Assembly: GCF_009834535.1 (NCBI RefSeq)
Contig: NC_045696.1
Coordinates: 6,450,001-6,514,000, forward strand
Direction of reading: 5' to 3'
From: Camelus ferus
Lineage: Eukaryota
Length of the DNA: 64,000 nt
The notes under the pieces are model-generated. The model made no database searches and was not told where the DNA came from. It saw nothing but the letters and a program-made list of their open reading frames with translations. Position numbers and translations under genes: made by a program. Below, in pieces: positions 1 through 31,910 of the stretch. Every line of letters starts with the position of its first letter. The first letter of the stretch is position 1.

Positions 1-3000
1 TGGCATCTCTCCACTCTAGGCAAGGGAAGATCTTTCTTTAAACCCTGGTTTTCAGCTCAGACAAATCATAAGAGCATTCACGTATGGAGTTTATCCTCAT
101 AGTGACTCTGCAAGATAGTATATTACCACCACCCCCATTTTGCAGGTGAGAACACCTAGGCATATAGAGCCGGGTGAGCTGCTCAAAGTCCCGTACGGGG
201 CAGAGCCAGGATTTAGCTGAAGCAGTGCTGACTTTCAGCCACCATACGGTCTGCCCCTCCAGCAAGTCCCGTCTGAGCCATGCTGAGCCCCGGCAAAGCC
301 TCGCGTCAGGGACACGCCTGCTCCCTTGACCTTGACATGGTGGGGGATCCAGGCTGTGAGCACCCCCAGCTACTGCAGAAGGAAGCCCGAGTGTGGGGCT
401 TGCTGGGCCCCCTCCGCTTTGTTTACTGCTCTGTTCCCCCGTCAGCTGGCGCCTGAGTGCCCTGCTCGGGGCCACCCCTCCTACTTGACCCACCGCTGCT
501 GAGTCACTCCCAGCTCTGCTTTTCTCTGTGGTTTATAAACCGTTTAGATGTTTTGCCCTTTTTTTTGCTCAGTCTGTACCTCTTTGCTACTGTGTTTCCC
601 TTCTTTTAATCACATTCAGAGACCATTTTCCTCCTAAAAATGAAAAGATTGCCTTTGGTCTTCTCCAAAGCCATGCCTCGCACTGCTTCAACCCGGTGGG
701 CTCTCCTGCAGGTTTGCAGCCTACATCTTTGTCCACCCCCACCCCCGCGCCTGCAGTCCTGCCTTTTTAGTTAATCACCCTGGACAAATCTAGGAGAAAA
801 GCAGCTGCTCCTTACTGATGTTGCCAGGGTGTTACCAGGACAGAGGGAGAGTCCTAGGTGTGACGAGTTCCAAAGAAGGTGAAGAAGGTGGTTCATGAGG
901 GGCAGGTGGTGGTGCTGATTGGATGGAAGATCCTGTCCTAGAAGAGCGTCTCCTTTTACTTGCTGGTTTGGCCAGTGAGATGCTCGGCCACTCTTAGACT
1001 TCCTAAATCTTAGGTACCTGTGTTTTGGAACCCCTATTCTGTATTCTAAAATGCACTTTTAGTGCACACCATTGTTTTGATAGTAAAATAAGAATTAAAT
1101 AAACTGCTTTTGAAATTCTGTGGCCGTGAGTAACTCATCTAACTGACCTGTTGACCATGACTTCTCAGCGACCATGGTGCATCCTTGAGATTCTCTCTTG
1201 CACAGCAAGAAAATCTGCTGTAGACTGCGAACACAGCGGATTTTTGTTATATTAAATTTGACAATTAATGACCTTGACATAGTGCTGCACTTTGTAACAT
1301 CTATTTAAACGTTAGTTGGTTTGCATTTATGGTTTTGTTCTCAGGTTTGGAAGCTGATGAATTTTGTTCATAGGTGTCTTCTTCCATAGGCCGTTGCAAC
1401 GCTCAGAGGCCCCGAGCCCTGTGTCTTAAGGGCTGATGGGTAAAACAGTCTAGGGAGAAATTCTTCCTCCGCCCTTTCAGCTTTGAGTTTCTAGCCATGA
1501 ATATAGGTTCCCGCCTTACTAGTTCTTCCGAAGCAGAAGAGCTAGGAAACCACGTTTGCGCACTGTTTTTATCCAGTACACATTTATCAAGGAAGCGGAT
1601 GAACGACAGATTCCCAAGAGGCAGTGCCAAGGTTCGAATGGATACCAAGTAGAATTTTGGCTGTTTAGGTAGATCTGTGTCCTTATACAAAATCTGTGGG
1701 ACTGCACTCTCTATGAGAGGAGGTTGACAGTGAATATTCATTTTCAAACAACGCCATGTGTTTATGTCGAAGCATATGTTAGACTGTTAAATCAAAAATC
1801 CATGTTTTTCCCTATTCCCAGGTCATATATGGAATTTTTTTTTCAAGCAGTGATCCTATGGTTACACTATATATACTAAAACCATATGGTTTTCTCAAAC
1901 TCCTCTTTGTATTTTTAAAAATGCATATTAATGAAATGTTGGGGGCAACAAAACTTGATTGAGAACAGTTTGAATATGTGGTTCTGGAGAAAGCAAAGGC
2001 TTCCATTGCGATGAACTACAAGCTGTTAATACATTTCAAATGTGTTGCTAGACTGAAAATGATCATTTTCCAGAACATATTCAGAAAAGGCTGACCTTTC
2101 TCACGATGCTATTGCATGGATGAATTCACAGTCATACCCATTTCCATGTAGCCAATGTGGAAACAAGGATTTTTGAGTTGGACAATTTATATAGGGAGCT
2201 AGTGGGAAGAATTTTGAGAAAACAAATTTATAATCACTTTTTACATTTCATCAGTTCCCTGAATAGTTCCTTTAGTCATTTTACCACATCTATTGGTATT
2301 ACTGATGGTGTAAGAAGAGGTGGTCGTTTTGGTAATAAGCCCAAGGCGGTGCTGCAGCTGGAGTTTGGGAGGAAAAGCCTGCCTTCTACCCATTTTCAAA
2401 GCTTCTAAAATCTGCTTAGCACATCTCAGCTTCGCCTCATGCTCCATATTTCTGTTGATGTTTGCAGCCATCTCTCCTCTAGGGAGCCATCAGTCATCTT
2501 AAAGTATTGTGGCATGGTGGCTAGAGCGATGTGCCTGGATTTTTCTCTGAATTTAATAAAACATAAAAGCCACATCTATATGCCTCTGGTGGGATCAAGA
2601 GAATTCTGACCGAATACACCCAGTTAAATGAGATCCATTGACTCAGCTGGAGTCTCGCTCGGCTCTGCGAGAGGCCTTGCAATCACTCGGTTTTGCAGTT
2701 TTCCTTTTGGAAATTCTGCTTAACACAATGGGCGTCGCAGCACCGGGGCAACACGTGGGTTTCCGTTAAGATGCATTTGCCTGAATACTGGAAATGGGTG
2801 ATCTGGTTTGAAACAGAGCCAGCTTTTTTCTAAACTTCCTCATTTTGAGTGGGTTAATTCTGTTCTAGGAAAAAGCTTTGACAGAATTGCTTTCTGAGCG
2901 CCAGCAAAATGTTATGTTAGAAATAACGGTGTTTACCTCCATTCTCTATTTTTTTCCATAAACTTTTAGACGTCCATTTCCTAAATCTGACTTTTATTAT

Positions 3001-3691
3001 TTGACTTGACCTCGCCAATATAAATGGTATTAGGTCATTATTGCCATCCATATAATGGCGCTCTCTGCCTCACAAAATAGGAAAAATAAGCCTTTCCACC
3101 CCCGAAACACAAAGTTGACCTACCTGCTCTGCTAAGGAAGTCAGAAATGGATGGAGCCAACTTGAACTCTGCCCCATAGGAATTCTTTACATTCCATAAA
3201 GGACTGGGACCTGTAGATCAGCCGGAGAGTCACCAGGAATCCTCATCTTAGGTCGGGTTCCTCAGACTCAGAGCTTGGGCTGGGGAAGCTTGTGCAGGTG
3301 ATTAATGAAGCCTGTGTTTTCGGGACAGAGGAAGTGAGGAAGCAGGCTAGGGCAGGGAAAGGTTCAGGAAGCTTGTGGACTTAGCTGGGCTCTTGCTCCA
3401 GTCTGACCCCGTGGGGATCTCCGGGCACGAACAGCATCATAGAACTGGTCCCCCTCTGAGGCAGGAGGGCCGGCGTCTGGTACCCTGTGTCAGTTCGTCG
3501 GGGTGAGGGCTCCCTGGGGGTGGCTGAGGCAGTACCTGTGCAGCCAAGGGTGGGTCTCTGGGGAAGAGGGGAGCCTGGGGAGGGAGCTCTGGGTGGGACA
3601 CTGACAGCACCCACCTGTATCCCTAAAGCAAGGATGCCTGGAGCTCAGAGTCTGTTCTCACTGCTGTTCTGTTTCCTTTCCCGCCTCCCAG

Positions 3692-4212
3692 GGAGCGGGC
3701 AGATCCAGCTGTGGCAGTTTCTTCTGGAGCTCCTGTCAGACAGCTCAAACTCCAACTGCATCACCTGGGAAGGCACCAACGGGGAGTTCAAGATGACAGA
3801 TCCGGACGAGGTGGCCCGGCGCTGGGGAGAACGGAAAAGCAAACCCAATATGAACTATGATAAACTCAGCCGGGCCCTCCGCTACTACTATGACAAAAAC
3901 ATCATGACCAAAGTCCACGGGAAGCGCTACGCCTACAAGTTTGACTTCCACGGCATCGCCCAGGCCCTGCAGCCCCACCCTCCAGAGTCTTCCCTGTACA
4001 AGTACCCCTCGGACCTCCCTTACATGGGATCCTATCACGCCCACCCACAGAAGATGAACTTTGTGGCCCCCCACCCTCCGGCCCTACCCGTGACGTCGTC
4101 CAGTTTTTTTGCTGCCCCCAACCCATACTGGAATTCCCCCACAGGAGGCATCTACCCCAACGCTAGGCTCCCAGCCAGCCACATGCCTTCGCATCTGGGC
4201 ACTTACTACTAA
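3692..4212 (+). CDS. ERG: ERG terminal coding exon (ETS DNA-binding domain + C-terminal activation tail); upstream exons lie outside the window
   Basis: Translation [86 protein letters not shown]...[10 protein letters not shown] matches ERG as I recall it, including the ERG-type (not FLI1) C-terminus. It is preceded by a polypyrimidine tract and AG acceptor (tttcctttcccgcctcccAG, 3690-3691; phase 1). Stop TAA at 4210-4212. Confidence 0.97.
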
Positions 4213-18344: not shown

Positions 18345-18497
18345 AAAAGCAACTGATCTAGAAATTGACCTCCTTGTTTCAGGAAGGATGTTTGGTATAA
18401 ATGTCTTGGGAAAATAACTTAAACTCATTTTAATTCAAGTCCTCAGATATACACAGAGAGTATGCAGATTATTATAGCAAAGCTACCCTTCCCAGTA
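18345..18497 (+). repeat. Left copy of 153-bp direct repeat (putative long TSD)
   Basis: aaaagcaactgatctagaaattgac...agctacccttcccagta; ungapped match to 31907-32059 with 11 mismatches by manual count. Confidence 0.95.
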
Positions 18498-18889
18498 AAG
18501 AAGAACAGAGGAAGGGTTAAAACTACCTGCTTCGGGGCTATTTACCTTTAGGAGAGTGGCTTAGGGAAAGTGTCTTAGGAAGTTCAGACTCTGATGAGCC
18601 AAGACTGGAATCCTGCCGATTGTAAACGGCCCATGATGGGGATGCTTCAAGGAGAAGTCTTCTTGGGTTTAGACAGTGAATGCAGGTGTGTCATCCAGCT
18701 CATGGCAACGTCTCAAACCCTTGTGTCATGCCAGGGTCATGCTCTATAAACTGAGGGCATCGGTGTACCCAGGACTTGATATATTTCATCTCATTTCACC
18801 ATCCCCCAAACTGAGCAGATGTGGTTATCTCATTTGATAGATAAGGAAACAAGCTTCAAGACAAGCAAAGCCATTTCTTACGTAGCTGG

Positions 18890-19203
18890 TATCTCAGTTT
18901 GGGCTGCTGTCACAAATTACTGCAGGCTGAGTGGCTGAAACAGCAAACATTGATTTCTCATCGTTCTTGGGGCTGAAAGTCCGAGGGGAGGGTGCCAGCG
19001 TGGCTGGGTTCTTCGTGAGGACCCTCTTCCTGATTTACAGGTGGCGGTCTTCCTGTTGTGTCCTCACGCGGCAGAGAGGAAGCAAGCTCTCTCTCGTTTC
19101 TTCTTTGAAATGAATTAACTCCATCGTGAGGGTTCCACCCTCATGCTCTAATTATCTCCCAAAGGCTCCATCCCCAAAGGCCATCACATTGGAAATTAGG
19201 GTT
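18890..19203 (-). mobile_element. MLT1A-like MaLR LTR
   Basis: gggctgctgtcacaaattac...ctaattatctcccaaaggctccatccccaaaggccatcacattgg. Confidence 0.7.
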
Positions 19204-19259
19204 GGTGCGGATCCTGGGTGCGTGGCTGACCTTGAGTAAATTAATTGACCTGTTTGTGG

Positions 19260-19870
19260 TCTATCCATACGATGGAACATTATTCAGGTTTTAAAAATAA
19301 TGAAATTCTGACACATGTTACAACAGGAACTTTGAAAACATGCTGAGCCAAATAGACCAGTCACAGAAGGAGAGATACTGTATGTTCACTTCAGGGAGGT
19401 ACCTAGGAGTCAGTCATGGAGACAGAAGGTAGACAAACAGATGAACATCAAGTTCATGCTGTGCAGCCCGGGGAACTGTATTCAATACCCTGCAGTAACT
19501 TATGGTGAAGGAGAGCATGAAACGAATACATGCACGTCCATGAAAGACTGACGCGTTGTGCTGTGCACCTGAAACTGACGCAGCGTTGTACACCGGCCAT
19601 ACTCCAATTAAAAATATATATATATATATATGAAAATTAGAATAGAGGTTTTAAAGGGCTGAGGAGTCAGTGTTTAATGGGGACAGGGTTCAGTTTGGGA
19701 AGATGAGAAAGTCCTGGAGACGGATTGTGGAGATAGGTTGTATGACCGTGGGGGTGAATTTTACACTCAAATTACCTTTAATGCCAGTGAACTTTACATT
19801 TAAAATAGTTAAAATGGTAACTATTAACTTAAACATAGTTAAAATGGTTTATATATTTTTTGATAAAACA
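19260..19870 (+). mobile_element. Old L1M 3' end with a nested younger L1 3' fragment (~19430-19630)
   Basis: tatccatacgatggaacattattcag...tttaatggggacagggttcagtttggg...aaaatagttaaaatgg, interrupted by an ...ctgtgcagcccggggaactg...(AT)n segment. Confidence 0.6.
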
Positions 19871-22800
19871 ATTTCAAGAATGCCCAAAAAAGGCTCTCAA
19901 AATCCAGTAACCAAATAATCCTTGAAGGCAGTGTATTTTTAAAAAATCCAAATTAAAGGAGAAAAATCCACGAGGAACAATAGCGAAATTTTAGATAAAG
20001 AGAAAGGGCATGACTGACTTCTCCTTTTGCCCCGGGCTCCACGAAGGCTCAGCCTGCCTCTGAGAGTCACCCTTCTCTGAGAGCTGACATCCTGGTCACA
20101 GCACGAGTGTGGTTTCTCACTCGGGTGGCAACCCCGCCAAGGCACAATTGTTCTCACTTCTCAGTTATATAAACTGAGCCTTCTTGGGGTTAAGGCACTT
20201 GCCTGCAGTCAGTCCTGTGCCTCTGGCCTCTGCAGACCGACCTCTCCAGCTGTGTCCAGCTGAGGAGGAGGTGGCCGCGGGCTCAGAATGGAAGCCTCCC
20301 TGAGAAGAGCCTCTGTGCAGGTCCGAGGGCGAGCTGGAGGTCTCCGTCCTGCCCCGAGGCTCACGGGGAGCAGGCTAATGGGTGACTTTTCCTGCTGTGA
20401 CTCTGCACTCATCTCTTTTTAAATTTCATGTTCTTTCTGATGCTGTGATCCTTCTAGGTCTGCAATAAACTGTAATTAATTGTTATTAATAAATATGTAA
20501 ATCATTGTTGGTGAATGAGTGAATGCATGAATGAACAAAATAAAAGTCTCACCAGTTTAACCCTGAGAAAGAACACACAGCCTTCTTGGCCGCTGTCTTG
20601 GAAATTTGTGCCTGGGGTAGCTGTCGCTTGAGAATTTTGTAGGTTGAAATGACAAAGCGTACAGATGTTGTGACGCTTTTAAAGCACCATATATTAAATA
20701 CATCTCTCTCTAAACCCTCGCTGGAGGTGGAGACAGAGCAATACATATTCTTTCACTTCTACTTCTCTTCACAAGTGGGTAAATTTCTGTATTAGTCACC
20801 CAACACTTACACGTAAGATGTGTTTGCATTTGAGGTGTCCACTAGCCGCACAGACAGCTGAGCTGTCAGACACCCCACTCACGGACAGACGAGCTCGTGT
20901 TTGTGGTCCGAAGCCATAGACTCTTCCCCTGGTTAAAGAGCCTTTTGTCTTGCAAAACAGGTCTAGGGCGGGCCCCCCAAGGGGCCTCTGTGGTTCCTTG
21001 TGCTCCTCTGAAACAGGGGACTTCCAGGGACAACAAGGTAGAGGGAGCAGTGACGGAACAGGTGGGAACCGTGTGTGTGCAGGAGACACACCTCCTCTGC
21101 CCTCTGGTCGTGCCCTCCTGGCTTTCAGGTTTCTGGCCCCAGAGAGCTAACTGCACAGACGCTCCTGTTCACTCAGCCCGGGCTGCTCTAGGTCCTTGCC
21201 TTTTCGCCTGCGCTGTGCCTTCAGCCAGAAATGCCTCTGCCCGCTTCCACTCCCTCTGCTCCTACCCCATAACCAGCGAAAGACCTTTCCTGGCTCAGGT
21301 CCAGTGCCAGCGCGGACACAGGCCGACCGAGACCTGATGAATCAGAATCTGCTTTGTGACAAGACCTCCAAGGGGTTCGCAGGCCCCTCCAAGTGTGGAA
21401 AGCCCTGTAGAGAACTCCTGCTGGTGCTTCAGTACTCAGCTCAGGGCCACCTCCCCCAGGGAGCCCTCCCTGACCTCCCACCTCACCCGAGGTTGCTGCA
21501 GGCAGTCTGGGCGCCGGTGCAGAGCCAACAGTGAGTGTGTAGGCCTCCTTCACCAGCACTCCTGGGCCCTGAGTCCGTCTCTCCACAGCCCGCACACCCT
21601 GCTGGAGGAAACCTAGGGTTCACCTTGGTCTCCCCACGAGTAGCGTCCTCACAGCTCCACTCGGGTAGCCAGCGCCTCACACTTGGGAATCCTCCCCCTC
21701 CCCTCCAGCCCCTCCCGTACCTGCCCTTGGAGTCCCTGTGGTGGGACCCCCAGGGGTGAGACCACTGATCCCGAGGGCCATCAGGGATGGCAGACACCTG
21801 GGGAGCCCAAGTGCTCGCCTGCTCAACCCTCTGTGCCCCAGAGATGAAGGCTTTCACGGGGTGTCACTCAGGGACGCTTGGCTGGATTTTTTCAGGCTTC
21901 CTCTGATGAGATTTGTTAAAAGTTCCTTGAAGTAGAACAAAAGTACACAGGGTTCTTAGAAAAGTCTAGGAGTCGTTCCTCAGTCTTCTTCTCTGACCGT
22001 CCAGTCACCTGCACACGGTCTTTGTGTTCTCCTGGATCTGTGTTTCACCCCCCAGCACAGCCCCCAGTGCTCCACGCAGACCCCTGTGAGCCCCCTTCCT
22101 GCAAACTCCCCCCTCCCCCACCCCACCTTCCGCTCTCTCCCCGCCCACAGAGACCTGTGTAGGATACACATCACTCCGTGTCCTCGGCCTCCAGCCCTCT
22201 CCCCCAGGTCTGCACCCTCCCCTGGTGTCCCTACCCTGCGCTAGAGAGATGTCTGTGCAGCGGGCCTGCTCCCCGCCCCCTCTTCCCCTCCCCGTCCTCT
22301 TTGCCCCATTTCCCTGCCCAGAAACCCAGCTTCTCAGGTCTCTATACTCCTGTCCTCTCTGCCTGGAGTACTCTGCCCCCTGACTTTCCCAGGCCAACTC
22401 CTCTTCCCTTTTAAAATCTCAGCATAAATACCACCTCCTGGTTTCGCATGTTGCACGTCACCCACTGGAGCTGTCTGCAGAGCAGAGATTGCCATCCTTT
22501 GTCTCTTTTTTCTTTATTATCTGAGCTCGTCCTTCCCTGGGTCCATGGGGAGGGGGCCACAGGCCTCACCTGGCTGCCTTTTTCCATCACTCCAACACCT
22601 ATACGTTGTCAAAGGCCACAGACACTCCAAACATACTAAATAAGTGGATGTGAATGAAGGCAATAGACACACACACACATTGGATCAAATAGGGTCAAGT
22701 GTGCTGGTCGTTCTCCAGGTTCTACGGGCCTTTTCTGGGCTGCTCTGCACCGGAGGCTGACTCCTGCCTGCCCTCCCCGGGTCCCCTGGGTGGCTGCCTT

Positions 22801-23144
22801 TTGCTCCAGCAGTAAAAGGAGGGACAGGACAGAGGCGGGGAAGGTTTCCCTGTCCCCCTGACGGCCCCTCGCTGAGCTCAGATGCCGTCTTCGCCCCTCA
22901 TCCTCCAGACCCAGCAGTGAGAAGAGCTTCCTTACTGCCGGCACCTCAGAGCCCTCTTCCTCGGTCCCCCCACATCCCTGATACAGCTCAGGTGACTGCC
23001 TGCATCTCAGCGCCCTCAGCTGCACCGTTTGGATGAAGGGTTTCTAGTTGGACCCTTACTGAATCATCAGGTACCTCTCATTTTCTGTCGATATGATCTA
23101 TGACTCTTTTGTCTATATACAAATTATATACCAAAACAACACCA

Positions 23145-24095
23145 TTTTTATTTTCAACATTTATTTAATCACTTAAAAAAAATGAAACTCTAACTTTACA
23201 TTTTCAGCTACCCACAAAGCAACTGAATAGGCTGACTATCTGTACTGTGGTTGGCGTGTGTGTGTTTGCCATCAAGAGAATACTTTTTAATTTTGACTTC
23301 ATAAATTTTAGAAATGTAAAAACAGAGAAAACTTTTTAACAAAATAACAACAGTTAAGAAAAAAATTACAAAACAGAAAGACATGGCTGCAAAATCTTAA
23401 GTACTCCAATCTGTGAGTTTAGGATTAATCTAATCCGATGAATTTAGGACTAAACTGTGAATTTAGGCGTACACTAACGAAGATTACCTAGTTTGAACGT
23501 GGTGCTATTTTGTTAACATTTTTGTTTGGGTTTTGTTTTGTTTTCACATTTTTTAAAATCAACAGAAGTTGACTAAGGTAAGTGTTAAATTACCTCCTCA
23601 GTTTTGTAAAACTAGCCATTGCATACAGAAATGGTCTTTATTGTGTTCAACTTTTCCATTCATGTCAGACTTAATGGATGCTTCAAGTCATCGTGGGCAT
23701 TCAACTCATCAAAATAAAATACTTATTATGTATCCATGAGAATTATATTATTGGGTCTACATTTAAATAACACTACCATAGAGTTTTCATGCTATTCTAA
23801 TAAGAGTAATTGTGGCATCAATTTAGCAATAATAGCTTAACTAAACAAGGAACAAACGAAATTCCTTCAGCAGAAATACATGCAGATGGAAATGAAAATT
23901 TGAGAAAATCTTATAAATTATGTTTTATCTACTTAGAAAAGAACAATTAAGTTATAGTAGCTAAATATAAAGAGAAAAATCAAAATTACTTTCAAAAGAG
24001 AGCACACGTGCGGATGTTGTGCTGTGGTTGTGAGCGTCTGGACCGACTGCTGTGAGCTGAGTCACACCTGCAGGTGACCGCAGGTCCCTGCTCCC
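23145..24095 (-). other. 3' UTR of the cTAGE-like retrogene, with candidate poly(A) signals
   Basis: AT-rich tract after the stop. Minus-strand AATAAA at 23160-23165 and 23147-23152, followed by a GT-rich element (ggtgttgttttgg). Homologous to the UTR of the second copy at ~27750-28120. Confidence 0.6.
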
Positions 24096-25574
24096 TCACC
24101 GCGGTGCCTTCCTCCTTCCCGGGGGGCCTGATGGCCCAGGGCCCCCCCCCCCCGACACTGGCGGGCCCCTGGGGGCTGCGGGCGGAGCAGCAGGAGCACC
24201 AGGGCCCCTGGGGGGAGGCTGGACGTTGGACTCGACCTGGGCCAGCATCTGCCGGGTGCGGTCACTCTCCTGTCGCAGCTCCTGGAGCTTTCTCTTGGTG
24301 GCCACCGCCGCCAGCCAGCCTTCCCCAGCTCTTTTCTCTTGGAAGTGGATCTTCTTGAGGTGGTAGGAGGTGGTTCTCTCCAATTCCTCGCCTGCGTCTT
24401 GGGCCATCTTCTTGCAGAGGTCGCGCATCTGACGTGTGGAGTCCAGGTCTCTACACACGTGGGTGAGTTGCTTCTCAACTTGTAAGCAGCGAGCTTCCAC
24501 CTGGGACAACTCTCTGTGAAGCTGCGTCACACAGTCGTCATAGGCGTCAGGCAGACTTTGAAGCTTCAGCTTCAGCTGCTCAATCTCACCATCGAGCCGG
24601 GAATTCTCACCCTTCACAGAGGCTTCTTCTGTTTGGAGACTTGTAACTTGTGCTGTAAGCTCTTGGATCATCTGCTTTTCTTCCCGCAGGCGCCTGGCTG
24701 TTCCCTGATGTTCCTCTTGGGGACGGGGAAGGCGCACACTGCGGCCAGCATCACCAGTGACGCCCTTCAGATCGCCCTCCGCCCCGGGGACAGGGCGATG
24801 GCCACCTTCTGCCCCCTCCTTCTGCTGGATGTCTGCGCGCCCGCCACCCGCGGGGCCCCCACGGAGGCGGGGCGAGGGGCTGGCCTTCAGCAGGTGGTCC
24901 GCGACGGATCTGAGTCGGCTGATTCTGCCTTGCAGGCCCTGCGCCTTTCCTGCCTTCGGCCGCTCCAGCCTCCCGCCCAGCTCCTCCTTTCCCTGGACTT
25001 GTCGCTCCCTTCTTCCAATTTCTGGGTGAAACCGCTCTGGACTCTCTGGAAAACCAACCCTCTTATTCAGATCATTCTTTTCTGTCTTCTGAGCTCGTTC
25101 TCCATTCTCCTCTGATGGCTTTAAGGTGTGTTTTCCGTCAGTGACTCGGGAGAGTTGAGGAGGCTGGCTCTTCAGTGCCTTTTCTATAAAGGCAACAGTG
25201 CCCTCAAACAATGTCCTTCTCAGGTTTTCTTTCAAGGCCCAAAAGCATAAGACTTTTAACAAGGGAGGACTGGCCTCCGGCCCAGGTGGCTTGAGGGCTT
25301 CGTGGGCCTGAGTCATCGGGCCCATAGTCTCTTCACATTTTCCACAGACTTCGTCTCGGGCTGAAGACGTTTTTCCAAGCGACCTCCCCCTTCTTAAAGC
25401 GTACCGTCCACTTCCTGCCAGGACCAGCACCCCAGCACACACCAGGCTCTCCCAGCGAAGCACAGGCAGACCCGGGACGTGTGTCAGGCTTTCGTAAACA
25501 AGCAGCAGAGCGCCCCACAGGGGCTCCAGGATCAGCTGGAAAGTGGCCCCGCGGGCAGCCTGCAGGACCTCCAT
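24096..25574 (-). CDS. Intronless cTAGE5/MIA2 (CTAGE family)-derived retrogene, 492 aa: N-terminal hydrophobic/TM segment, coiled coils, short Pro-rich tail
   Basis: Uninterrupted ORF with ATG in perfect Kozak context (GCCGCCATGG). GLPVLRWESLVCAGVLVL resembles cTAGE5 GFPWELVICAAVVG. LQTEEASVKGEN...EELERTTSYHLKKIHFQEKRAGEGWLAAVATKRKLQELRQE is collinear with cTAGE5 LQTEQASLQSEN...[41 protein letters not shown] (recalled sequence). No introns, whereas the parent is multi-exon. Confidence 0.85.
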   Translation of the reverse strand: MEVLQAARGATFQLILEPLWGALLLVYESLTHVPGLPVLRWESLVCAGVLVLAGSGRYALRRGRSLGKTSSARDEVCGKCEETMGPMTQAHEALKPPGPEASPPLLKVLCFWALKENLRRTLFEGTVAFIEKALKSQPPQLSRVTDGKHTLKPSEENGERAQKTEKNDLNKRVGFPESPERFHPEIGRRERQVQGKEELGGRLERPKAGKAQGLQGRISRLRSVADHLLKASPSPRLRGGPAGGGRADIQQKEGAEGGHRPVPGAEGDLKGVTGDAGRSVRLPRPQEEHQGTARRLREEKQMIQELTAQVTSLQTEEASVKGENSRLDGEIEQLKLKLQSLPDAYDDCVTQLHRELSQVEARCLQVEKQLTHVCRDLDSTRQMRDLCKKMAQDAGEELERTTSYHLKKIHFQEKRAGEGWLAAVATKRKLQELRQESDRTRQMLAQVESNVQPPPRGPGAPAAPPAAPRGPPVSGGGGPGPSGPPGRRKAPR

Positions 25575-27749
25575 GGCGGCGAGGCCTCCGCAGCTCTGCC
25601 TCTGAGGACCAGCGTCCTGTGGGCCCAACTGCCCGCTCAGAACCCTGCGGTGTTCCGTCTCCAAGGTAAGCAAGCGCCTGCCCGCCAGGGCGGGCAGCTG
25701 GGCCGGGGGAGGGGAGGCCAGCCAGGTCCTGGTCCGCAGTTGTCCCTAACGTCGCTGGCAGTGGAAAGCGACCTCACTTACCCAGGCCCTGGGGGAGGGG
25801 GAGGGCTGAGCACAGCCTGGAGCTGGGCCACTCGAGGCCCGCCTGGCCCCACAGCAGACCTAGGGGGTCAAAGCAGGGCCAGGCCGGTCCCGTTCTGTGC
25901 CTAAGAGGAGGTCAGGGCAGAGTGGTGGGACCCTGTTCTGGTGAGAGCCAGGCTCCTGAGTTAAGGGTTCCCTCTGCTGCAGAGACAGCTGGTCCTGCCC
26001 CAGAGGTCCCGGGGATCCCCCTCCTCTGAGGCCCCCCTCCCCCTTGTGTGGTCACTGTGGGAAGACAGGGCCCCAGTCTGAAAGGTCTTCTCGACGATAT
26101 TACGTGTGAGACCAGGATTCCAATGGTAACAACTCAGGAGGAATCAGTCTGAATTTCAGGGTCTTACAATCCTGTGTTATCTGTGGAGCCAGCATGTTCC
26201 TGTTGAATCTAAGGCTCCTAGAAGGGGCTGATTCTGTTCCAGGAGGGACACAGTGACATGGGCTGTGTCCCCAGATGGTCCTGCCATTTCAGCTCGTACT
26301 TCCCAAGGTGGGCCTGAGGGGGGTCTCCCGTCCACTGAGCCATCTTCAGAAGTGGCCTCTGTGTAAGGGGACAGGCCTTTCTTTTGGCCCCGTTTATTTC
26401 ACTAAACCACGTCGTGCTCCCCTAGTATCTCTCTGGCACACCCGGGCTCAGAGACTCCTAGTCAGACTCTTGGATCTGTCCCAGCACCTCATCCTCCATT
26501 CCTTTACTGCACAGGGAACCAAGGGAACTGGCATCTGAGACCTTTTCAAGGGTCCCAATGGATGCCAGGCCCAAGAGGGCTGAAAGGGTGGGCTGGGGGC
26601 AGGAACCCTCCCAGGGAAGTCGGGCCTTTTCAGGGCCGTCAGAACCACGTCTGCAAGTGCACGTGGTTGATCTTTAAAATAGATCACGCGTGGGTGAAAG
26701 AAATGGCAGTGTTCTCCCGAGCACTCAGCTAGCCCTAAGATGAGAGAAACAGCATGAAAACTATTGGCCCATCAAGAGGTCCAGGGTGTTTTATTGCCTA
26801 AAACAGCTCGGGGCCAGACGGTATATAGCGAGAGAATTCCAGAGAAGTTCTGGACGGATAGCACTTCTCCAGTGCCTTCTGGGGACGGGAATTTAAAGCA
26901 GCAGGAAGTGGTCTTCCCTCGCCCCCCCCATCCTCCCCCTCCCTCCCCTGTCTGCACCTCTTTTGTCTTCTCTTCAGTTCCTCCCCTCTGTTCTTCTGTC
27001 TTCTTATTTCCTTCCTCTTTTCTGTTTTTAAAAACATGTTCTAAAATTTTTGATATTGTTACTACAAGCATATGTCATTTGTAACTCTTAGGTGACACCT
27101 GACAGGTAGCCAGGTGGGGGTTTGGTCCCCCAGATCTCACAGTGTCCCCTGAGGTCTGCCCCACTGTCTCCAGGATGTGAGCCCCTCCTTCCTGCTTCTT
27201 CTGCTGAGGGAAGTGGAAGTACCACGTCCTGGACCAGCCTGTGCCTCCTGCGGGTCAGCACTCGGGGCCCAGGCTTCATTTCGTCCCAGGGTCTTCTCCG
27301 CTTACTCTGTTCCCAGGGTCCCCTTCCTGTGCAGAGTGATGCCAGCCTTTCCTCCTCAGTGTCCCCTTTGAGCTGCCCCAACCTGGTGTGTGTGTGTGTG
27401 AGTGTGTGTGTAATAGTGTGTGTGTGTGAGTGGGTTTGTTTGCCATGAAGGGAAGACTTTAATTTTGACTGCTAAGTATTAGAAATAGTTAAACCACACA
27501 CAGTATTTTAAGCAAAATAAGTTTACGGCAAAGGTGGACGTTTCATTTAAATCAAACTGTGCATCTGAAATATGCGTAGTTTACTGCACAGAAACTATAC
27601 CACAACAACGTTGTTTAAAAAAATGTTAAAGAAGAAACCAATGACTGAGAAATATCAATGCCCCTAAACTAATCAATGAATTTACCGCCACCCGAATAAA
27701 AATGTTACAGAACTTGAAGGTTGTGTCGTCGTTTTCAAGGTTTCTTTTG

Positions 27750-28568
27750 CATTCATTTTTAAAACCAGTTTAAATTCCTCCCTGCAGATATTAAATCACT
27801 CATACAGGTTTCTCGTAGCAGGTCCTCGCAGACAGAAACGGTCTGCATGGTCTTGAACGTTTCTCTCCGTGTCAGAGTTTGAGGAGGCATAAATCATGGT
27901 AGACATTTCATTTAAGTCAAAATATAAAATTTACACTAATTCTAAAGGGTCCATTGATGGAGAAATAATGTATTCATAAGCATCATATGAACAAATTTGT
28001 ATTTAAAAATACTAACTTAAAATTACATACCAAACTTCTATAAGAGCAATTGCGGCATCAGTTAAACAGCAGGAGCTAAACTGAAAAGAAATACATCGAC
28101 ATTAATATAAGAAAGAAACATGCAGATGTTGTGCTGTGGTTATGAGCGTCTGGACCGGCTGCTGTGAGCTGAGTCACACCTGCAGGTGACCGCAGGTCCC
28201 TGCTCCCTCACCGCGGTGCCCTCCTCCTTCCCGGGGGGCCTGATGGCCCAGGCCCCCCCCCCCCGACACTGCTGGGCCCCTGGGGGCTGCGGGCGGAGCA
28301 GCAGGAGCAACAGGGCCCCTGGGGGGAGGCTGGATATTGGACTCGACCTGGGCCAGCATCTGTCTGGTGCAGTCACTCTCTTGTCGCAGCTCCTGGAGCT
28401 TTCTCTCGGTGGCCGGCACCGCCAGCCAGCCTTCCTCAGCTCTTTTCTCTCGGAAGCGGATCTTCTTGAGGTGGTAGGAGGTGATTCTCTCCAATTCCTC
28501 GCCTGCGTCTTGGGCCATCTTCTTGCAGAGGTCGCGCATCTGACATTGGAGTCCAGGTCTCTACACAC
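27750..28568 (-). pseudogene. 5'-truncated second copy of the cTAGE-like retrogene (C-terminal coding part plus 3' UTR)
   Basis: 28123-28568 is ~95% identical to 24011-24458 (about 22 substitutions and 2 single-base indels by manual count). It ends abruptly at 28568. Weaker UTR homology extends left to ~27750. Confidence 0.9.
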
Positions 28569-28599
28569 TTTAGGAATGATTTCTAGGCAGAGGGAAACA

Positions 28600-29120
28600 G
28601 TAGCTTAGGATTAATCAGGGTGCACCCTCAGATCAAGTGACGAAAGTTTGCAGGAATTACATTGGGACAGGCTAACACCATGTGCCTCCTATCACGACGC
28701 CCTGAAAACAACAATTTCTTTGGTTTTCTGGACAAAAATACATAACTGGAATCTAATCATGAAGAAATATAAGACAAATCCGAAGCGAGAAACAGTCTAC
28801 AAAATTCCTGGCACATATGCTTCAAAACTATGAAGGTCACAAAATTCCTTTAGAAGGGAGCTGAGGGATTGTTTCCGATGAAAACCCCAGGGAACATGAC
28901 ATCTAAATGCAATGCATGATCCTCGACTAGATCCTGGGCCAGAGGGAAGACAAAACACTCAGAGATGATAGTATCTGAAAAACTGACAAAATTTGAACAT
29001 GGACAGTGGGTTAGATAAGCATTATGGCAGTGTTAAATCCCAGCTTTGGTCGTTGTACTATTGTCAGGAAATAGTAAAGTGTTCGTGGGGTCAACAGGCT
29101 TTATGGCTTTAACTTGGTCA
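28600..29120 (+). mobile_element. Old L1MC-like 3' fragment
   Basis: cataactggaatctaatcatgaagaaa...acatctaaatgcaatgcatgatcctcgactagatcctgggccag motif. Confidence 0.55.
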
Positions 29121-29602
29121 AAAATTGTCAGTGACTGACGGTTTCTCGACTGGCCTTCGTCCTGCTGGGATAGCGCAGCAGCGGCTCACGCCAGGTCTTC
29201 GCTCACTTGCTGGGGGGGATTCTCTTCTCAGTGAGAAAACACAAGATCGTACTAACGCTCCAGGGTGGTCCAGATCTGCCCTGGGCCCGCTGGGGCCAGA
29301 ACGCCTCCTCCAAGGGCGTATCAGGGACCACGGAGCGGTCTCACTGCCTGGACCGGGTGGGGGTCCTCCTCCAGTTAACTCCACCTTCAAAGGCCCCCTT
29401 CCTCCTTCTCCCTTGCCGTTAAAATGTCTGAAGTGGTTTTGTGCCTGAACAGCTTCTGGCTCCCGGGCTCCCCACGGGCTTCTGTGAAAAGCTCTGTCTC
29501 TGAATGCCCACAATGGCAACGACCATTTATTCTCTTATAAAACAACAGCAGTTTACTCTCTTGTGATCCTGAGGGCCAGAGCTCTAAAATCAAGGTGTCA
29601 AA

Positions 29603-31910
29603 CACATTTGATAAAATTCAACACCCAGTTATGATAAAAACTCTCACCAAAGTGGGTATAGAGGGAACATATCTCAACAGAATAAAAGCTATATATGACA
29701 AACCTACAGCCAGCATAGCACTCAACGGTGAAAAGCTCAAAAGCTTCCCACTAAAATCTGGAACAAGACAAGCCTGCCCGAATCACAACTCCTATTCAAC
29801 ATAGTCCTGGAAGTCCTAGCCACAGCAATTAGGCAAGAGAGAGAAATAAAAGGGATCCAAATTGGAAAAGAAGAGGTAAAATTGTCACTATATGCAGATG
29901 ACATGATACTATATATAGAAAACCCTAAAAGGTCCACACAAAAACTACTAGAGCTGATTGAAGAATTCAGCAAGGTAGCAGGTTACAAGATTAACGTTCA
30001 AACATCAGTGGCATTTCTTTACACTAACGATGAATCAACAGGAAAAGAAAGTAAAGAAACAATCCCCTTTAAAATAGCACCCAAAGTAATAAAATACCTA
30101 GGAATAAATCTAACCAAGGGGGTGAAAGACTTATACATGGAGAACTATAAAACACTGATTAAGGAAATTAAAGAAGACTTAAAAAAATGGAGTGATATCC
30201 CAGGCTCCTGGATTGGGAGAATGAATATTGTTAAAATGGTCACACTGCCCAAGGCAATCTACAGATTTAATGCAATCCCTATCAAATTACCCAGGACATA
30301 TTTCACAGAACTAGAACAAAGCATTATAAAATTTATATTGAACCACAAAAGATCTAGAATTGCCAAAGCATCACTGAAGAAAAAGAAAGAGGCTGGAGGA
30401 ATAACTCTTCCAGACTTCAGACAATACTACAGAGCTACAGTCATCAAGACAGCATGGTATTGGTACAGAAACAGACATATAGACCAATGGAACAGAACAG
30501 AGAGCCCAGAAATGAACCCACAAACTTTTGGTCAACTAATCTTCAACAAAGGAGGCAAGAATATACAATGGAATAAAGACAGTCTCTTCAGCAAATGGTG
30601 TTGGGAAAGCTAGATAGCAGCATGTAAAGCAATGAAGCTAGAACACTCCCTTACACCATACACAAAAATAGACTCAAAATGAATCAAAGACTTAAACATA
30701 AGACAAGATACAATAAACCTCCCAGAAAAAAATATAGGCAAAACATTATCTGACATACATCTCAAAAATGTTCTCCTAGGACAGGCAACCCAAGCAATAG
30801 AAATAAAAGCAAGAATAAACAAATGGGACCTAATGAAACTTACAAGCTTCTGCACAGCAAAGGAAATCATAAGTAAAACAAAATGACAACCTACAGAATG
30901 GGAGAAAATTTTTGCAAATGAAACAGACAAAGGCTTGATCTCATATGACTCTTATTAAGCTCATATGACTTAATAAGGAAAAAACAAACAACCCAATCCA
31001 AAAATGGGCAGAAGGCCTAAACAAGCAATTCTCCAAGGAAGAAATACAAATAATCAATAGGCACATGAAAAAATGCTCAGTAGCACTAATTATCAGAGAA
31101 ATGCATGTCAAAACTACAGTGAGGTATCACCTCACATCGGTCAGAATGGCCATCATTCAAAAGTCCACAAATGACAAATGCTGGAGAGGCTGTGGAGAAA
31201 AGGGAACACTCCTACACTGCTGGTGGGAATGCAGTTAGGTGCAGCCACTGTGGAAAACAGTATGGAGATTCCTCAAAAGACTAGGAATAGACTTACCATA
31301 TAACCCAGGAATTCCGCTCCTGGGCATATATCCAGAAGGAACCCTACTTCAGGATGACACCTGCACCCCAATGCTCATAGCAGCACTATTTACAATAGCC
31401 AAGACATGGAAACAGCCTTAATGTCCATCAACAGATGACTGGATAAAGAAGAGGTGGTTTATTTATACAATGGAATACTATTCAGCCATAAAAAAGGCAA
31501 CATAATGCCATTTTCAGCAACATGGATGTTCCTGGAGAATGTCATTCTAAGTGAAGTAAGCCAGAAAAGCAAATCTAAAAAAAAAAAAAAAGAACATAAA
31601 TACACAATAGAAACAGACTCATAGACATAGAATACAAACTTGTGGTTGCCAAGGAGGTGGGGGGTGGGAAGAGACAGATGGGAGTTCAAAATTTGTAGAT
31701 ACTGACAAGCATATAAAGAATAGATAAACAAGATTGTACTGTATAGCACAGGGAAATATATACAAGATCTTGTGGTAGCTCACAGTGAAAAAAAAATGCG
31801 TCAATGAATATATGTATGTTCATGTATAACTGAAAAATTGTGCTCTACACTGGAATTTGACATAACATTGTAAAATGACTATAACTCAATAAAAAAAAGT
31901 TTAAAAAAAA
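29603..31910 (+). mobile_element. 5'-truncated, relatively young L1 (ORF2 RT/C-terminal region, 3' UTR, polyA)
   Basis: Translations FDKIQHP...[26 protein letters not shown]...KWCWES and QPLWKTVWRFLK; frameshifts/stops present; AATAAA at 31888-31893 followed by an A tail. Confidence 0.97.

What the first reader, a model, noticed from the sequence alone, without database searches (positions are those of the whole stretch)
24096..25574. Intact, highly diverged intronless cTAGE5/MIA2 retrogene downstream of ERG
Seen: a 492-codon open frame with perfect Kozak GCCGCCATGG, a GC/CpG-rich 5' flank and a 3' UTR with poly(A) signals. Protein identity to cTAGE5 looks low by eye, yet the frame is unbroken. 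Known: cTAGE5 is an ER-exit-site cargo adaptor (TM, two coiled coils, Pro-rich Sec23-binding domain), and primates independently expanded CTAGE retrocopies with cancer/testis expression. Inference: this is a functional, fast-evolving, probably testis-expressed paralogue. It keeps the TM and second coiled coil but has a shortened first coiled coil and has lost most of the proline-rich domain, so it could be a modulator or dominant-negative of TANGO1/cTAGE5 export. I do not recall such a gene in the human ERG-KCNJ15 interval.
Basis: partly seen in the sequence, partly recalled or inferred. Interest (0 to 1): 0.75.

Follow-up and report, generated by a model that had tools for sequence, protein, structure and literature searches.

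The report
Short cTAGE5-like retrogene beside ERG
An unbroken, intron-free gene copied long ago from the secretion gene MIA2/cTAGE5 lies about 20 kb beyond ERG in this camelid genome. It is real, but it belongs to a multi-copy family already annotated in camels, hippo, dogs, bats and rhino, so it is an ordinary family member and not a new gene.

Summary
The 492-codon ORF (window 24096-25574, minus strand, GCCGCCATGG start) is real; 0 of 1000 shuffles reach its length. It is an intron-free, 25%-identical derivative of the short (cTAGE5-type) isoform of MIA2. The multi-exon parent lies on another contig.

It is not an orphan. A 99%-identical Camelus ferus protein is deposited as 'CTAGE family, member 5-like'. 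Relatives of about 500 aa are annotated in hippo, rhino, bats and dog, so the family predates camelids.

Here it is one of five copies, 96-99% identical, around ETS2-ERG, and it sits inside an 11.1-kb inverted duplication. Only one sister copy (503 aa) keeps the canonical family end. The window copy has one extra G in a 12-G run, which replaces the conserved ...GHLQV tail; one RNA contig shows 11 G.

Only one long helix (285-450, the parental coiled coil 2) folds confidently. Coiled coil 1 has decayed, the Sec23-binding proline-rich domain is absent, and the membrane anchor is marginal.

RNA libraries from three studies (one labelled reproductive system) hold the sequence, but they resolve neither copy nor strand. 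Long-term selection is purifying (dN/dS 0.44; 0.27 in the helix) and cannot be measured for this copy. A role as a TANGO1/MIA2-binding modulator is inference.

The parts
24096..25574 (-). Intronless ORF of 492 aa (P0001), an MIA2/cTAGE5-derived retrogene copy. Residues 1-65: N-terminal helix plus a marginal hydrophobic anchor. 66-284: decayed coiled coil 1. 285-450: conserved long helix (coiled coil 2). 451-474: Pro-rich stub. 475-492: frameshifted tail.
24142..24153 (-). Run of 12 C on the + strand (12 G in gene sense). It is one base longer than in most paralogues and moves the reading frame off the family's conserved C-terminus. An RNA contig from run X4 (24111-24209, otherwise identical to the window) has 11.
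24062..24095 (-). Remainder of the ancestral coding frame (...GEGAGTCGHLQV, then stop at 24064-24062). It would be read if the G run had 11 bases and would give a 503-aa protein like sister copy L002.
23140..24095 (-). Probable 3' UTR of about 950 nt, ending after the AATAAA at 23165-23160 (gene sense). Dispersed family copies end just after the homologous AATAAA with A-rich tails. Run X1 RNA contigs cover 23176-23966.
25575..26080 (-). GC-rich upstream part of the unit shared by all copies (probable 5' UTR and proximal promoter). Identity to paralogues drops to noise beyond about 26100. An X1 RNA contig covers 25495-26036.
28071..28568 (-). Truncated direct duplicate of window 23956-24458 (last ~120 codons plus ~140 nt of 3' flank), 91.7% identical. 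Matches residues 381-484 at 85%. A gene fragment.
18482..29600 (.). 11.1-kb block duplicated in inverted orientation at C1:6605999-6617110 (98.2% identical). The twin gene copy (L003) has an in-frame TGA at codon 434 and a 5-base shorter G run.
3460..4212 (+). Context: open frame holding the last ERG exon (Ets domain at 3706-3942). The retrogene is convergent with it, about 20 kb downstream.

Best explanation
SHOWN
- Window 24096-25574 (minus strand) is one copy of an old, intron-free gene family. The family arose by retroposition of the short, cTAGE5-type mRNA of MIA2.
- Family proteins of about 500 aa occur in camels, hippo, rhino, bats and dog/panda. They share the same truncated layout, so the truncation is ancestral.
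- In this camelid the family has multiplied by DNA-level duplication around ETS2-ERG: five copies 96-99% identical, with the window copy inside an 11.1-kb inverted duplication. It has also multiplied by secondary retroposition of its own mRNA: dispersed copies end after the same AATAAA with A-rich tails.
- Most copies are broken. One sister copy (L002, 503 aa) is canonical.
- The window copy is open for 492 codons but carries a +1 shift in a 12-G run that replaces the conserved ...GHLQV end. The shift may be a real allele or a homopolymer error in the assembly.

INFERRED
- The protein is a weakly membrane-anchored ER protein. Its only well-kept module is the long helix 285-450, homologous to coiled coil 2 of MIA2/cTAGE5.
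- Through that helix it pairs with MIA2/cTAGE5 or TANGO1 at ER exit sites.
- It lacks the 651-804-type proline-rich domain and most coiled-coil-1 residues. It therefore cannot engage Sec23, and probably not Sec12, and would act as a modulator or competitor of the export machinery.
- It most likely acts in germline or reproductive tissue.
For: Identity
- BLASTP to an MIA2 short isoform: 25% identity (132/518), E 5e-29, colinear from residue 14.
- The profile of 11 family members finds 620 proteins at E<=1e-3. Among them are MIA2 of raccoon dog, bat, platypus and lizards.
- The atlas neighbours of the hippo member are 'TGO1' and 'MIA2-like' clusters.

Retrocopy
- The parent's exons lie at C6:43911423-43962441 and match at 67-95%. 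The window ORF is contiguous on C1.
- No joints were found in the laid contigs.

Family age
- Named members come from Camelus, Hippopotamus, Diceros, Phyllostomus, Sturnira, Canis and Ailuropoda.
- An NJ tree of the helix columns puts all ~500-aa members in one clade that roughly follows the orders (no support values).

Copies
- 45 matches in the genome.
- ORF identity is 96.3-98.7% among L001/2/3/5/6.
- The shared core is about 23900-26080.
- The 11.1-kb inverted duplicate is 98.2% identical.
- A-rich tails follow the AATAAA in L019, L018 and L011.

Selection
- L001 vs L004: dN/dS 0.44, 70.2 synonymous and 107.8 non-synonymous differences, binomial p 2.7e-6.
- In the helix 286-450: dN/dS 0.27, p 4.8e-5.

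Architecture
- AF2 gives pLDDT 81-94 only for helix 285-450; mean pLDDT is 55.
- MIA2-invariant columns kept: 27 of 67 in coiled coil 2, 6 of 28 in coiled coil 1.
- Pro 8.7% and Gly 12.8% in residues 66-284, against 0% and 1.3% in the parent.
- The alignment ends near parent residue 523-590, and there is 1 PPP motif against 4.
- Passages of bioRxiv 10.1101/452904 say residues 651-804 with the PPP motifs bind Sec23A. They also say Sec23-binding mutants still bind TANGO1L and Sec12 and stay at exit sites.

Pairing
- Complex prediction, helix 280-455 against MIA2 300-520: score 0.35, best of 3 controls 0.00, verdict 'weak support'.
- The mark was reached by 51 of 78 solved complexes and 2 of 108 mismatched pairs. 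At 0.60 or under it was reached by only 5 of those 78, and by all 4 mismatches that passed.
- Partner pLDDT is at least 82, and the runs agree in at least 95% of contacts.
- The two chains are paralogous coiled coils, so the score may only reflect likeness.

RNA
- 9 of the 20 holding runs are on record as RNA.
- Contigs of X1, X4 and X11 (three studies) cover the ORF. X1 also covers 23176-23966 and 25495-26036.
Against: - For this copy alone, selection cannot be shown. It has 1 synonymous and 1 non-synonymous private change. L001 vs L002 gives dN/dS 0.69 with p 0.25.
- Pairs that include broken copies give similar ratios, 0.42-0.96.
- The window copy lacks the conserved C-terminal tail in its own frame.
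- Its hydrophobic anchor is the weakest of the 11 proteins compared: 1.57 against 1.79-2.75.
- All 9 differences between the runs and the window match states of paralogues. RNA contigs over the ORF therefore cannot be assigned to this copy.
- The 3' UTR is 98-100% identical to that of the broken twin L003.
- Contigs give no strand, and RNA libraries can hold DNA.
- The pairing score is weak.
- No protein-level or tissue-resolved data were available.
- The NJ tree has no support values.
- Frameshifts seen in paralogues, and in L004 relative to the Camelus ferus protein P0003, may be assembly errors.
Confidence: 0.55

Rival explanations
1. The window copy is a redundant young duplicate drifting towards pseudogene status. 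Its frame is open only because little time has passed since the last duplication or gene conversion. Any family function in this genome is carried by the canonical 503-aa sister L002.
For: - Three of the five near-identical copies are already broken. L003 has a TGA at codon 434. L005 has 3 frameshifting indels. L006 has 3 frameshifting indels plus the TGA.
- The window copy has only 2 private substitutions, so little time has passed in which it could break.
- It has a +1 shift that removes the conserved tail.
- It has the weakest hydrophobic anchor.
- dN/dS against near copies is 0.59-0.86, not different from 1 (p 0.22-0.41).
Against: - The X4 RNA contig is exact to the window over 24111-24209 and distinct from all listed paralogues there. 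It carries the 11-G form that restores the tail, so the shift may be an allele or an assembly error.
- The 99%-identical Camelus ferus protein differs at only 5 of 433 positions and is also open.
- The start context and the helix are intact.
Confidence: 0.3
2. The locus acts as RNA only (for example a regulatory retrocopy transcript), and the long ORF is not translated.
For: The sequence is present in RNA libraries. No protein evidence is available. Many retrocopies act as non-coding RNAs (abstract of PMC8071448, seen in the listing).
Against: - Open frames of about 500 aa are kept across at least four orders.
- dN/dS is well below 1 over the long term and lowest in the helix.
- DNA similarity to the parent is too low for antisense or sponge effects: blastn found nothing and tblastx found 1 exon.
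Confidence: 0.05
3. One reading: this is a camelid-specific, independently arisen and independently truncated retrocopy of cTAGE5.
For: Copy number is high in this genome, and camelid copies cluster together in the NJ tree.
Against: - Hippo, rhino, bat and dog proteins align end to end with the same truncation point and the same tail motif.
- Identity to the hippo protein (58%) is far above identity to any MIA2 (25%).
- All ~500-aa members form one clade apart from MIA2.
Confidence: 0.03

Closest known systems
MIA2 short isoform (cTAGE5), the parent gene; here at G000:C6:43.91-43.96 Mb
   Same: Colinear homology from the short isoform's N-terminus through the hydrophobic anchor and both coiled-coil regions to the first ~70 residues after coiled coil 2. 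The long helix is kept: 27 of 67 invariant columns.
   Different: - Only 25% identical.
- No introns.
- About 48 residues shorter in the first third.
- The coiled coil 1 region is Pro/Gly-rich and predicted with low confidence.
- It ends before the Sec23-binding proline-rich domain (residues 651-804 in human cTAGE5, per passages).
- The family has its own conserved C-terminal ...GHLQV end.
Deposited automatic gene models: 'CTAGE family, member 5-like protein' (Camelus ferus), 'cTAGE family member 15-like' (Hippopotamus amphibius kiboko), 'melanoma inhibitory activity protein 2-like' (Canis lupus dingo)
   Same: Same family and same architecture. The C. ferus model P0002 is 99% identical over 433 aa, with 5 differences.
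   Different: The window copy is 492 aa with a shifted tail. P0002 is a 433-aa model. The canonical length is 503-508 aa.
Primate CTAGE genes (human CTAGE2/4/6/8/9/15 are listed in PMC7829582, passages seen; that they are retrogenes with cancer/testis expression is recalled)
   Same: Also cTAGE5-derived paralogues that lack the lumenal SH3 part. A parallel expansion of the same parent.
   Different: [quoted passage not shown] The family here lost the Pro-rich domain and coiled coil 1.
Second Laurasiatherian cTAGE5-like family of ~210 aa ('cTAGE family member 9(-like)' in Vulpes lagopus and Lontra canadensis)
   Same: Also intron-free, also derived from the cTAGE5 N-terminal part, also multi-copy in this genome.
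   Different: It covers only parent residues 1-194 (anchor plus the start of coiled coil 1). It has no coiled coil 2 and is dispersed over many contigs.

Membership tests
MIA/cTAGE family (cytoplasmic, cTAGE5-type members) | Significant, colinear sequence homology to the cytoplasmic part of MIA2/TANGO1 | tested here: met
   BLASTP E 5e-29, 14-471 vs 14-523 of an MIA2 short isoform. The family profile hits named MIA2 proteins at E 1e-38 to 1e-52.
MIA/cTAGE family (cytoplasmic, cTAGE5-type members) | Signal-anchor / transmembrane segment near the N-terminus | tested here: inconclusive
   A homologous hydrophobic stretch is present, but the best 19-mer Kyte-Doolittle mean is 1.57, against 2.41 in the parent and 1.79-2.75 in relatives. 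The uncharged run is only 14 residues. AF2 gives a helix at 40-65 at low confidence. The 1.6 threshold is recalled.
MIA/cTAGE family (cytoplasmic, cTAGE5-type members) | Two coiled-coil regions | tested here: inconclusive
   Coiled coil 2 is met: a continuous helix 285-450 with pLDDT 81-94, and 27 of 67 invariant columns kept. Coiled coil 1 is not met: pLDDT is below 50 for most of 66-284, Pro is 8.7% and Gly 12.8%, and 6 of 28 invariant columns are kept.
MIA/cTAGE family (cytoplasmic, cTAGE5-type members) | C-terminal proline-rich domain with PPP motifs that binds Sec23 | tested here: not met
   Homology ends near parent residue 523-590. Only a 42-residue Pro/Gly-rich stub remains, with 1 PPP against 4 in the parent at 695-724. 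The binding region is 651-804 in human cTAGE5, per passages.
Processed retrogene | Contiguous coding sequence where the parent has introns, at a different locus | tested here: met
   The parent's exons are spread over C6:43911423-43962441 (7 exon-sized matches at 67-95%). The window ORF is contiguous on C1. No joints were found in the laid contigs.
Processed retrogene | Poly(A) remnant and target-site duplications at this copy | tested here: inconclusive
   The window copy shares flank beyond its poly(A) site with L003, L006 and L004, so it arose by DNA duplication. A-rich tails after the homologous AATAAA are seen in the dispersed copies L019, L018 and L011. Target-site duplications were not searched.
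Processed retrogene | Transcription of the copy | tested here: inconclusive
   RNA-library contigs of three studies cover the ORF, and in X1 also the UTRs. Copy and strand are not resolved, apart from one 98-nt X4 contig specific to this copy's sequence.
Laurasiatherian ~500-aa MIA2-like / CTAGE5-like family | End-to-end alignment with the ~500-aa members | tested here: met
   39-79% identity to 10 members over the whole length. 92-99% query coverage for the full-length hits.
Laurasiatherian ~500-aa MIA2-like / CTAGE5-like family | Conserved C-terminal end (...G-H-L/W-Q-V) | tested here: not met
   In the window's frame the tail reads differently and stops 11 codons early. The motif lies in the +1 frame and would be read with an 11-G run, as in sister L002 and in the X4 contig.

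The most novel reading that the evidence does not exclude
Laurasiatherian mammals have kept, for roughly the age of the group, a germline or reproductive-tract cTAGE5 derivative stripped of its Sec23-binding and Sec12-binding parts and carrying its own conserved C-terminal motif. It would act as a natural competitor that docks on TANGO1/MIA2 rings at ER exit sites and tunes large-cargo export. Camelids would be amplifying it by birth-and-death duplication around ETS2-ERG, in parallel with, and mechanistically opposite to, the primate CTAGE expansion that keeps the proline-rich domain.
Probability: 0.2. Interest if true: 0.55.

Novelty: new member of a known kind. Interest (0 to 1): 0.3.

Why it matters
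If the family is functional, it is a natural experiment on the ER-exit machinery: a cTAGE5 that keeps the TANGO1-pairing helix but has lost the parts that recruit Sec12 and Sec23. It would be a second, independent expansion of the same parent gene outside primates. It would give cell biologists a ready-made separation-of-function variant, and evolutionary biologists a case of parallel retrogene recruitment. For genome annotation, the practical points are these:
- The locus is a multi-copy birth-and-death cluster.
- Automatic names ('CTAGE5-like', 'CTAGE15-like', 'MIA2-like') hide one coherent family.
- A homopolymer decides the C-terminus.
As it stands, the gene is already in the databases and nothing about it is very surprising.

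Tried and rejected
- Pfam gave only 7 weak coiled-coil-type hits, all below cut-off (best 15.9 bits against 27.6).
- PDB by sequence gave 2 vimentin chains at E 0.28 and 0.92, which mean nothing.
- The word-based search among longer proteins found none of 7999 candidates at E<=0.001. The link to MIA2 came from the profile search instead.
- blastn of the gene region against 50 kb of the parent locus found nothing, and tblastx found 1 exon. The origin of the 3' UTR, and whether the truncation reflects an alternative parental transcript, stay open. Only 5 of the parent's 10-kb stretches were fetched.
- RNA cover: X1 has depth in 20 of 30 bins, X4 in 11, X11 in 8, and run X15 (kind not on record) in 30 of 30. 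The uncovered flanks (22834-23167 and beyond 26508) and the hole at 25005-25171 in X1 are no evidence of transcript ends. Contig depths cannot rank parts.
- The maximum-likelihood tree tools could not be loaded. A plain NJ tree without support values was used.
- The atlas does not hold the window protein, so the hippo homologue was used. Its structure rows have TM 0.16-0.33 and say nothing.
- Earlier findings of the scan: nothing by place or by sequence.
- Literature: four searches returned no paper on a non-primate or camelid cTAGE5-derived retrogene family. The searches were cTAGE5+retrogene; CTAGE/retrocopies/MIA2/retroposition/CTAGE family; CTAGE5+camel; CTAGE5-like/MIA2-like/CTAGE15-like/CTAGE9-like/cTAGE family member. 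Subscription journals are not covered.
- Other long ORFs of the window, and the gene fragment, gave no Pfam hit.
- Considered and dropped: that the 98% twin or the cluster copies are assembly duplicates. This could not be tested. DNA run depth over the ORF is about twice that of the flanks (34-71 against 15-30), which fits collapsed multiple copies but is not a copy number.
Full report
OBSERVATION

The start context is GCCGCCATGG. None of 1000 composition-matched shuffles gave an ORF that long (median 108, maximum 343).

The 5' flank is GC-rich (0.64-0.68). Its CpG observed/expected ratio is only 0.38-0.55. Gene-sense AATAAA signals lie at 23642-23637, 23165-23160 and 23152-23147.

WHAT IT IS

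Pfam and PDB sequence searches gave nothing usable. The word-indexed protein search returned 17 proteins at E<=0.001 among 8000 scored candidates:
- a 433-aa Camelus ferus model named 'CTAGE family, member 5-like protein', 99% identical (5 differences in 433 positions);
- a second C. ferus paralogue at 80%;
- hippo 'cTAGE family member 15-like' at 58%;
- rhino and two bat proteins at 35-55%;
- unnamed proteins at 43-54%.

A search among longer proteins found none.

A profile of 11 family members, searched against 1.84 billion representatives, found 620 proteins at E<=1e-3. Of the 10 looked up by name:
- 6 are MIA2 of raccoon dog, a bat, platypus and three lizards;
- one cluster holds squirrel MIA2-like proteins;
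- one holds dingo, jackal and dog 'MIA2-like' proteins of 507-530 aa;
- one holds a panda fragment.

BLASTP of the window protein against the 806-aa raccoon-dog MIA2 isoform X4 gives 25% identity (132/518) at E 5e-29. The alignment is colinear, residues 14-471 against 14-523, and starts at that short isoform's own N-terminus. I take this isoform as the cTAGE5-type form from its length and N-terminus; that reading is partly recall. The nearest atlas clusters of the hippo member are 'TGO1 protein (Fragment)' and 'MIA2-like'.

RETROCOPY

In the window's own genome the parent gene matches exon by exon at C6:43911423-43962441, as 7 exon-sized pieces at 67-95% identity. The window ORF matches contiguously on C1. 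The laid contigs show no joints. DNA-level similarity to the parent is gone: blastn found none and tblastx found one exon.

CONTEXT

The best Ets-domain match of the genome is at window 3706-3942 on the + strand. The frame that holds it (3460-4212) matches ERG best among solved structures (E 2.5e-83, against 3.9e-77 for FLI1). The gene therefore lies about 20 kb beyond the end of ERG, convergent with it. A two-piece Ets match at C1:6072708-6073785 is probably ETS2; the adjacency of ERG and ETS2 is recalled.

THE FAMILY IN THIS GENOME

The window protein has 45 matches in the genome. Five full-length copies lie within C1:6.04-6.75 Mb, and their ORFs are 96.3-98.7% identical:

| Copy | State |
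|---|---|
| L001 (the window) | open for 492 codons, tail shifted |
| L002 | clean 503-aa ORF ending ...GGGGLGHQAPQEGGGHRGEGAGTCGHLQV |
| L003 | TGA at codon 434 and a G run 5 bases shorter |
| L005 | 3 frameshifting indels |
| L006 | 3 frameshifting indels and the same TGA |

Older copies:
- L004 on C13 is 87.5% identical in the ORF and open for 526 aa. It is frameshifted after about residue 448 relative to its C. ferus counterpart P0003.
- L007, L013, L009, L011, L018, L019 and L025 are broken.

All copies share a core of about 23900-26080. The window copy lies in an 11.1-kb block (18482-29600) that recurs inverted at C1:6605999-6617110 with 98.2% identity. The block also holds a 500-bp fragment of the gene at 28071-28568.

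The dispersed copies L011, L018 and L019 end just after the AATAAA homologous to window 23165-23160, with A-rich tracts (12 A in L019). Their 5' ends are cut at different points. This is what secondary retroposition of the family's own mRNA would leave. It also outlines a transcript of about 2.9 kb, from about 26080 to about 23140.

THE C-TERMINUS

Relative to nearly all paralogues, the window copy has one extra base in the G run at ORF nucleotides about 1424 (+ strand C run 24142-24153). Its last 18 residues are therefore out of the family's frame. The +1 frame carries the conserved end ...GHLQV, with its stop at 24064-24062.

A 98-nt RNA-library contig of run X4 (24111-24209) is identical to the window and differs from every listed paralogue there, yet it has 11 G. 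The 12-G state may be an allele, a species difference or a homopolymer error. No DNA contig of X15 covers the run.

ARCHITECTURE

| Feature | Result |
|---|---|
| AF2 model (11-row alignment) | mean pLDDT 55; only a single helix 285-450 is confident (81-94); low-confidence helices at 8-32, 40-65, 104-135, 184-198 and 209-231 |
| MIA2-invariant columns kept | 27 of 67 in coiled coil 2; 6 of 28 in coiled coil 1 |
| Composition of residues 66-284 | 8.7% Pro, 12.8% Gly (parent: 0% and 1.3%) |
| Hydrophobic anchor, best 19-mer | 1.57 (parent 2.41; relatives 1.79-2.75) |
| PPP motifs | 1 (parent: 4) |

The protein ends well before the region that binds Sec23A in human cTAGE5. Passages of bioRxiv 10.1101/452904 give that region as residues 651-804 with PPP motifs. 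They also report that mutants without Sec23 binding still bind TANGO1L and Sec12 and stay at exit sites.

The main change, however, is decay.

SELECTION

Nei-Gojobori estimates over codons 1-474:

| Comparison | dN/dS | Differences (syn / non-syn) | Binomial p against neutral share |
|---|---|---|---|
| L001 vs L004, whole ORF | 0.44 | 70.2 / 107.8 | 2.7e-6 |
| L001 vs L004, helix 286-450 | 0.27 | - | 4.8e-5 |
| L001 vs L002 | 0.69 | 8 / 17 | 0.25 |

- Other near pairs give 0.57-0.96.
- Pairs that include broken copies give similar values to intact pairs.
- The window copy has 1 synonymous and 1 non-synonymous private change.

Long-term constraint on the family is therefore shown. It is supported also by open ~500-aa frames in at least four other orders. 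Constraint on this copy today is not shown. The method ignores transition bias.

EXPRESSION

Of 24 listed runs, 20 hold part of the stretch and 9 of those are on record as RNA, from 11 studies in all. Four runs were laid.
- X1 (study P1, labelled reproductive system metagenome, transcriptomic) covers 24266-24796 and 25257-25444 at contig depth 100-118. It covers the 3' part 23176-23966 at depth 7-19, and 25495-26036 at 17.8.
- X4 (P2) and X11 (P5) cover parts of the ORF.
- All 9 listed differences inside the ORF match states of paralogues.
- The 3' UTR is 98-100% identical to that of the broken twin L003.

Apart from the X4 contig above, the RNA cannot be assigned to this copy, and contigs give no strand. 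The cluster's sequence is present in RNA libraries. Beyond the label of one study, the tissue is unknown.

PAIRING TEST

The helix 280-455 was folded against MIA2 300-520.
- Score 0.35, best of 3 controls 0.00, verdict 'weak support'.
- The mark was reached by 51 of 78 solved complexes and 2 of 108 mismatched pairs.
- At 0.60 or under it was reached by only 5 of those 78, and by all 4 mismatches that passed.
- Partner pLDDT is at least 82, and the runs agree in at least 95% of contacts.

The two chains are paralogous coiled coils, so likeness alone may explain the score.

MECHANISM

Shown: origin, family, copy history, architecture.

Inferred: the protein sits on the ER membrane and pairs through helix 285-450 with MIA2/cTAGE5 or TANGO1. 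Passages say the cytoplasmic parts of cTAGE5 and TANGO1 interact; that coiled coil 2 is the contact is recalled. It cannot engage Sec23, so it would modulate or compete. I give this about 0.35 on its own. The whole best explanation, identity included, gets 0.55.

The main rival is that this copy is a drifting duplicate and L002 is the working gene (0.3).

NOVELTY

The gene and its relatives are in public databases under automatic names. Four literature searches found no paper that describes this non-primate family. The passages read list only human members. It is a new member of a known kind, of modest interest.

Noticed in passing
G000, about 30 places, e.g. L036 (C17:39052211-39054765) ORF 845..1585 minus; L037 (C3:113111768-113114322) ORF 884..1630 plus: A second, dispersed family of intron-free ORFs of about 210-250 aa, homologous only to residues 1-194 of the MIA2 short isoform (anchor plus the start of coiled coil 1; 31-37% identity, most without stops). 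Relatives are named 'cTAGE family member 9(-like)' in arctic fox and otter, and hypothetical proteins in camels, reindeer and deer. Pfam gave nothing.
   Followed up: partly
window 18482-29600 and G000:C1:6605999-6617110: An 11.1-kb inverted segmental duplication at 98.2% identity, about 130 kb apart. Each arm carries a full gene copy and a 500-bp gene fragment.
   Followed up: yes
G000:C1:6043565-6045016 and 6064042-6065493, next to Ets matches at C1:6072708-6073785: Two further family copies (L002 canonical, L006 broken) lie within about 30 kb of what looks like ETS2. The cluster therefore brackets the whole ERG gene.
   Followed up: partly
G000:C13:48361101-48361208: An Ets-domain fragment with an internal TAG lies about 7 kb from the C13 family copy L004 (48368520-48369983). 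It is not known whether it was carried along with a duplicated ERG-flank segment.
   Followed up: no
L004 (G000:C13) against protein P0003; L003, L005, L006: Single-base indels at or near homopolymers separate this genome's copies from deposited camel proteins. An example is L004, frameshifted after about residue 448, where P0003 reads the family frame. Some 'pseudogene' calls here may be assembly errors.
   Followed up: partly
ORF codon 434 (CGA in the window copy): The same CGA-to-TGA stop is present in L003, L006 and L013. It is either a recurrent CpG hit or was spread by gene conversion among copies.
   Followed up: no
window 29903-30610 (+), 42230-42832 (+), 60152-60814 (-): Three other ATG ORFs of 201-236 aa in the window. 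None has a Pfam match at E<=0.01.
   Followed up: partly
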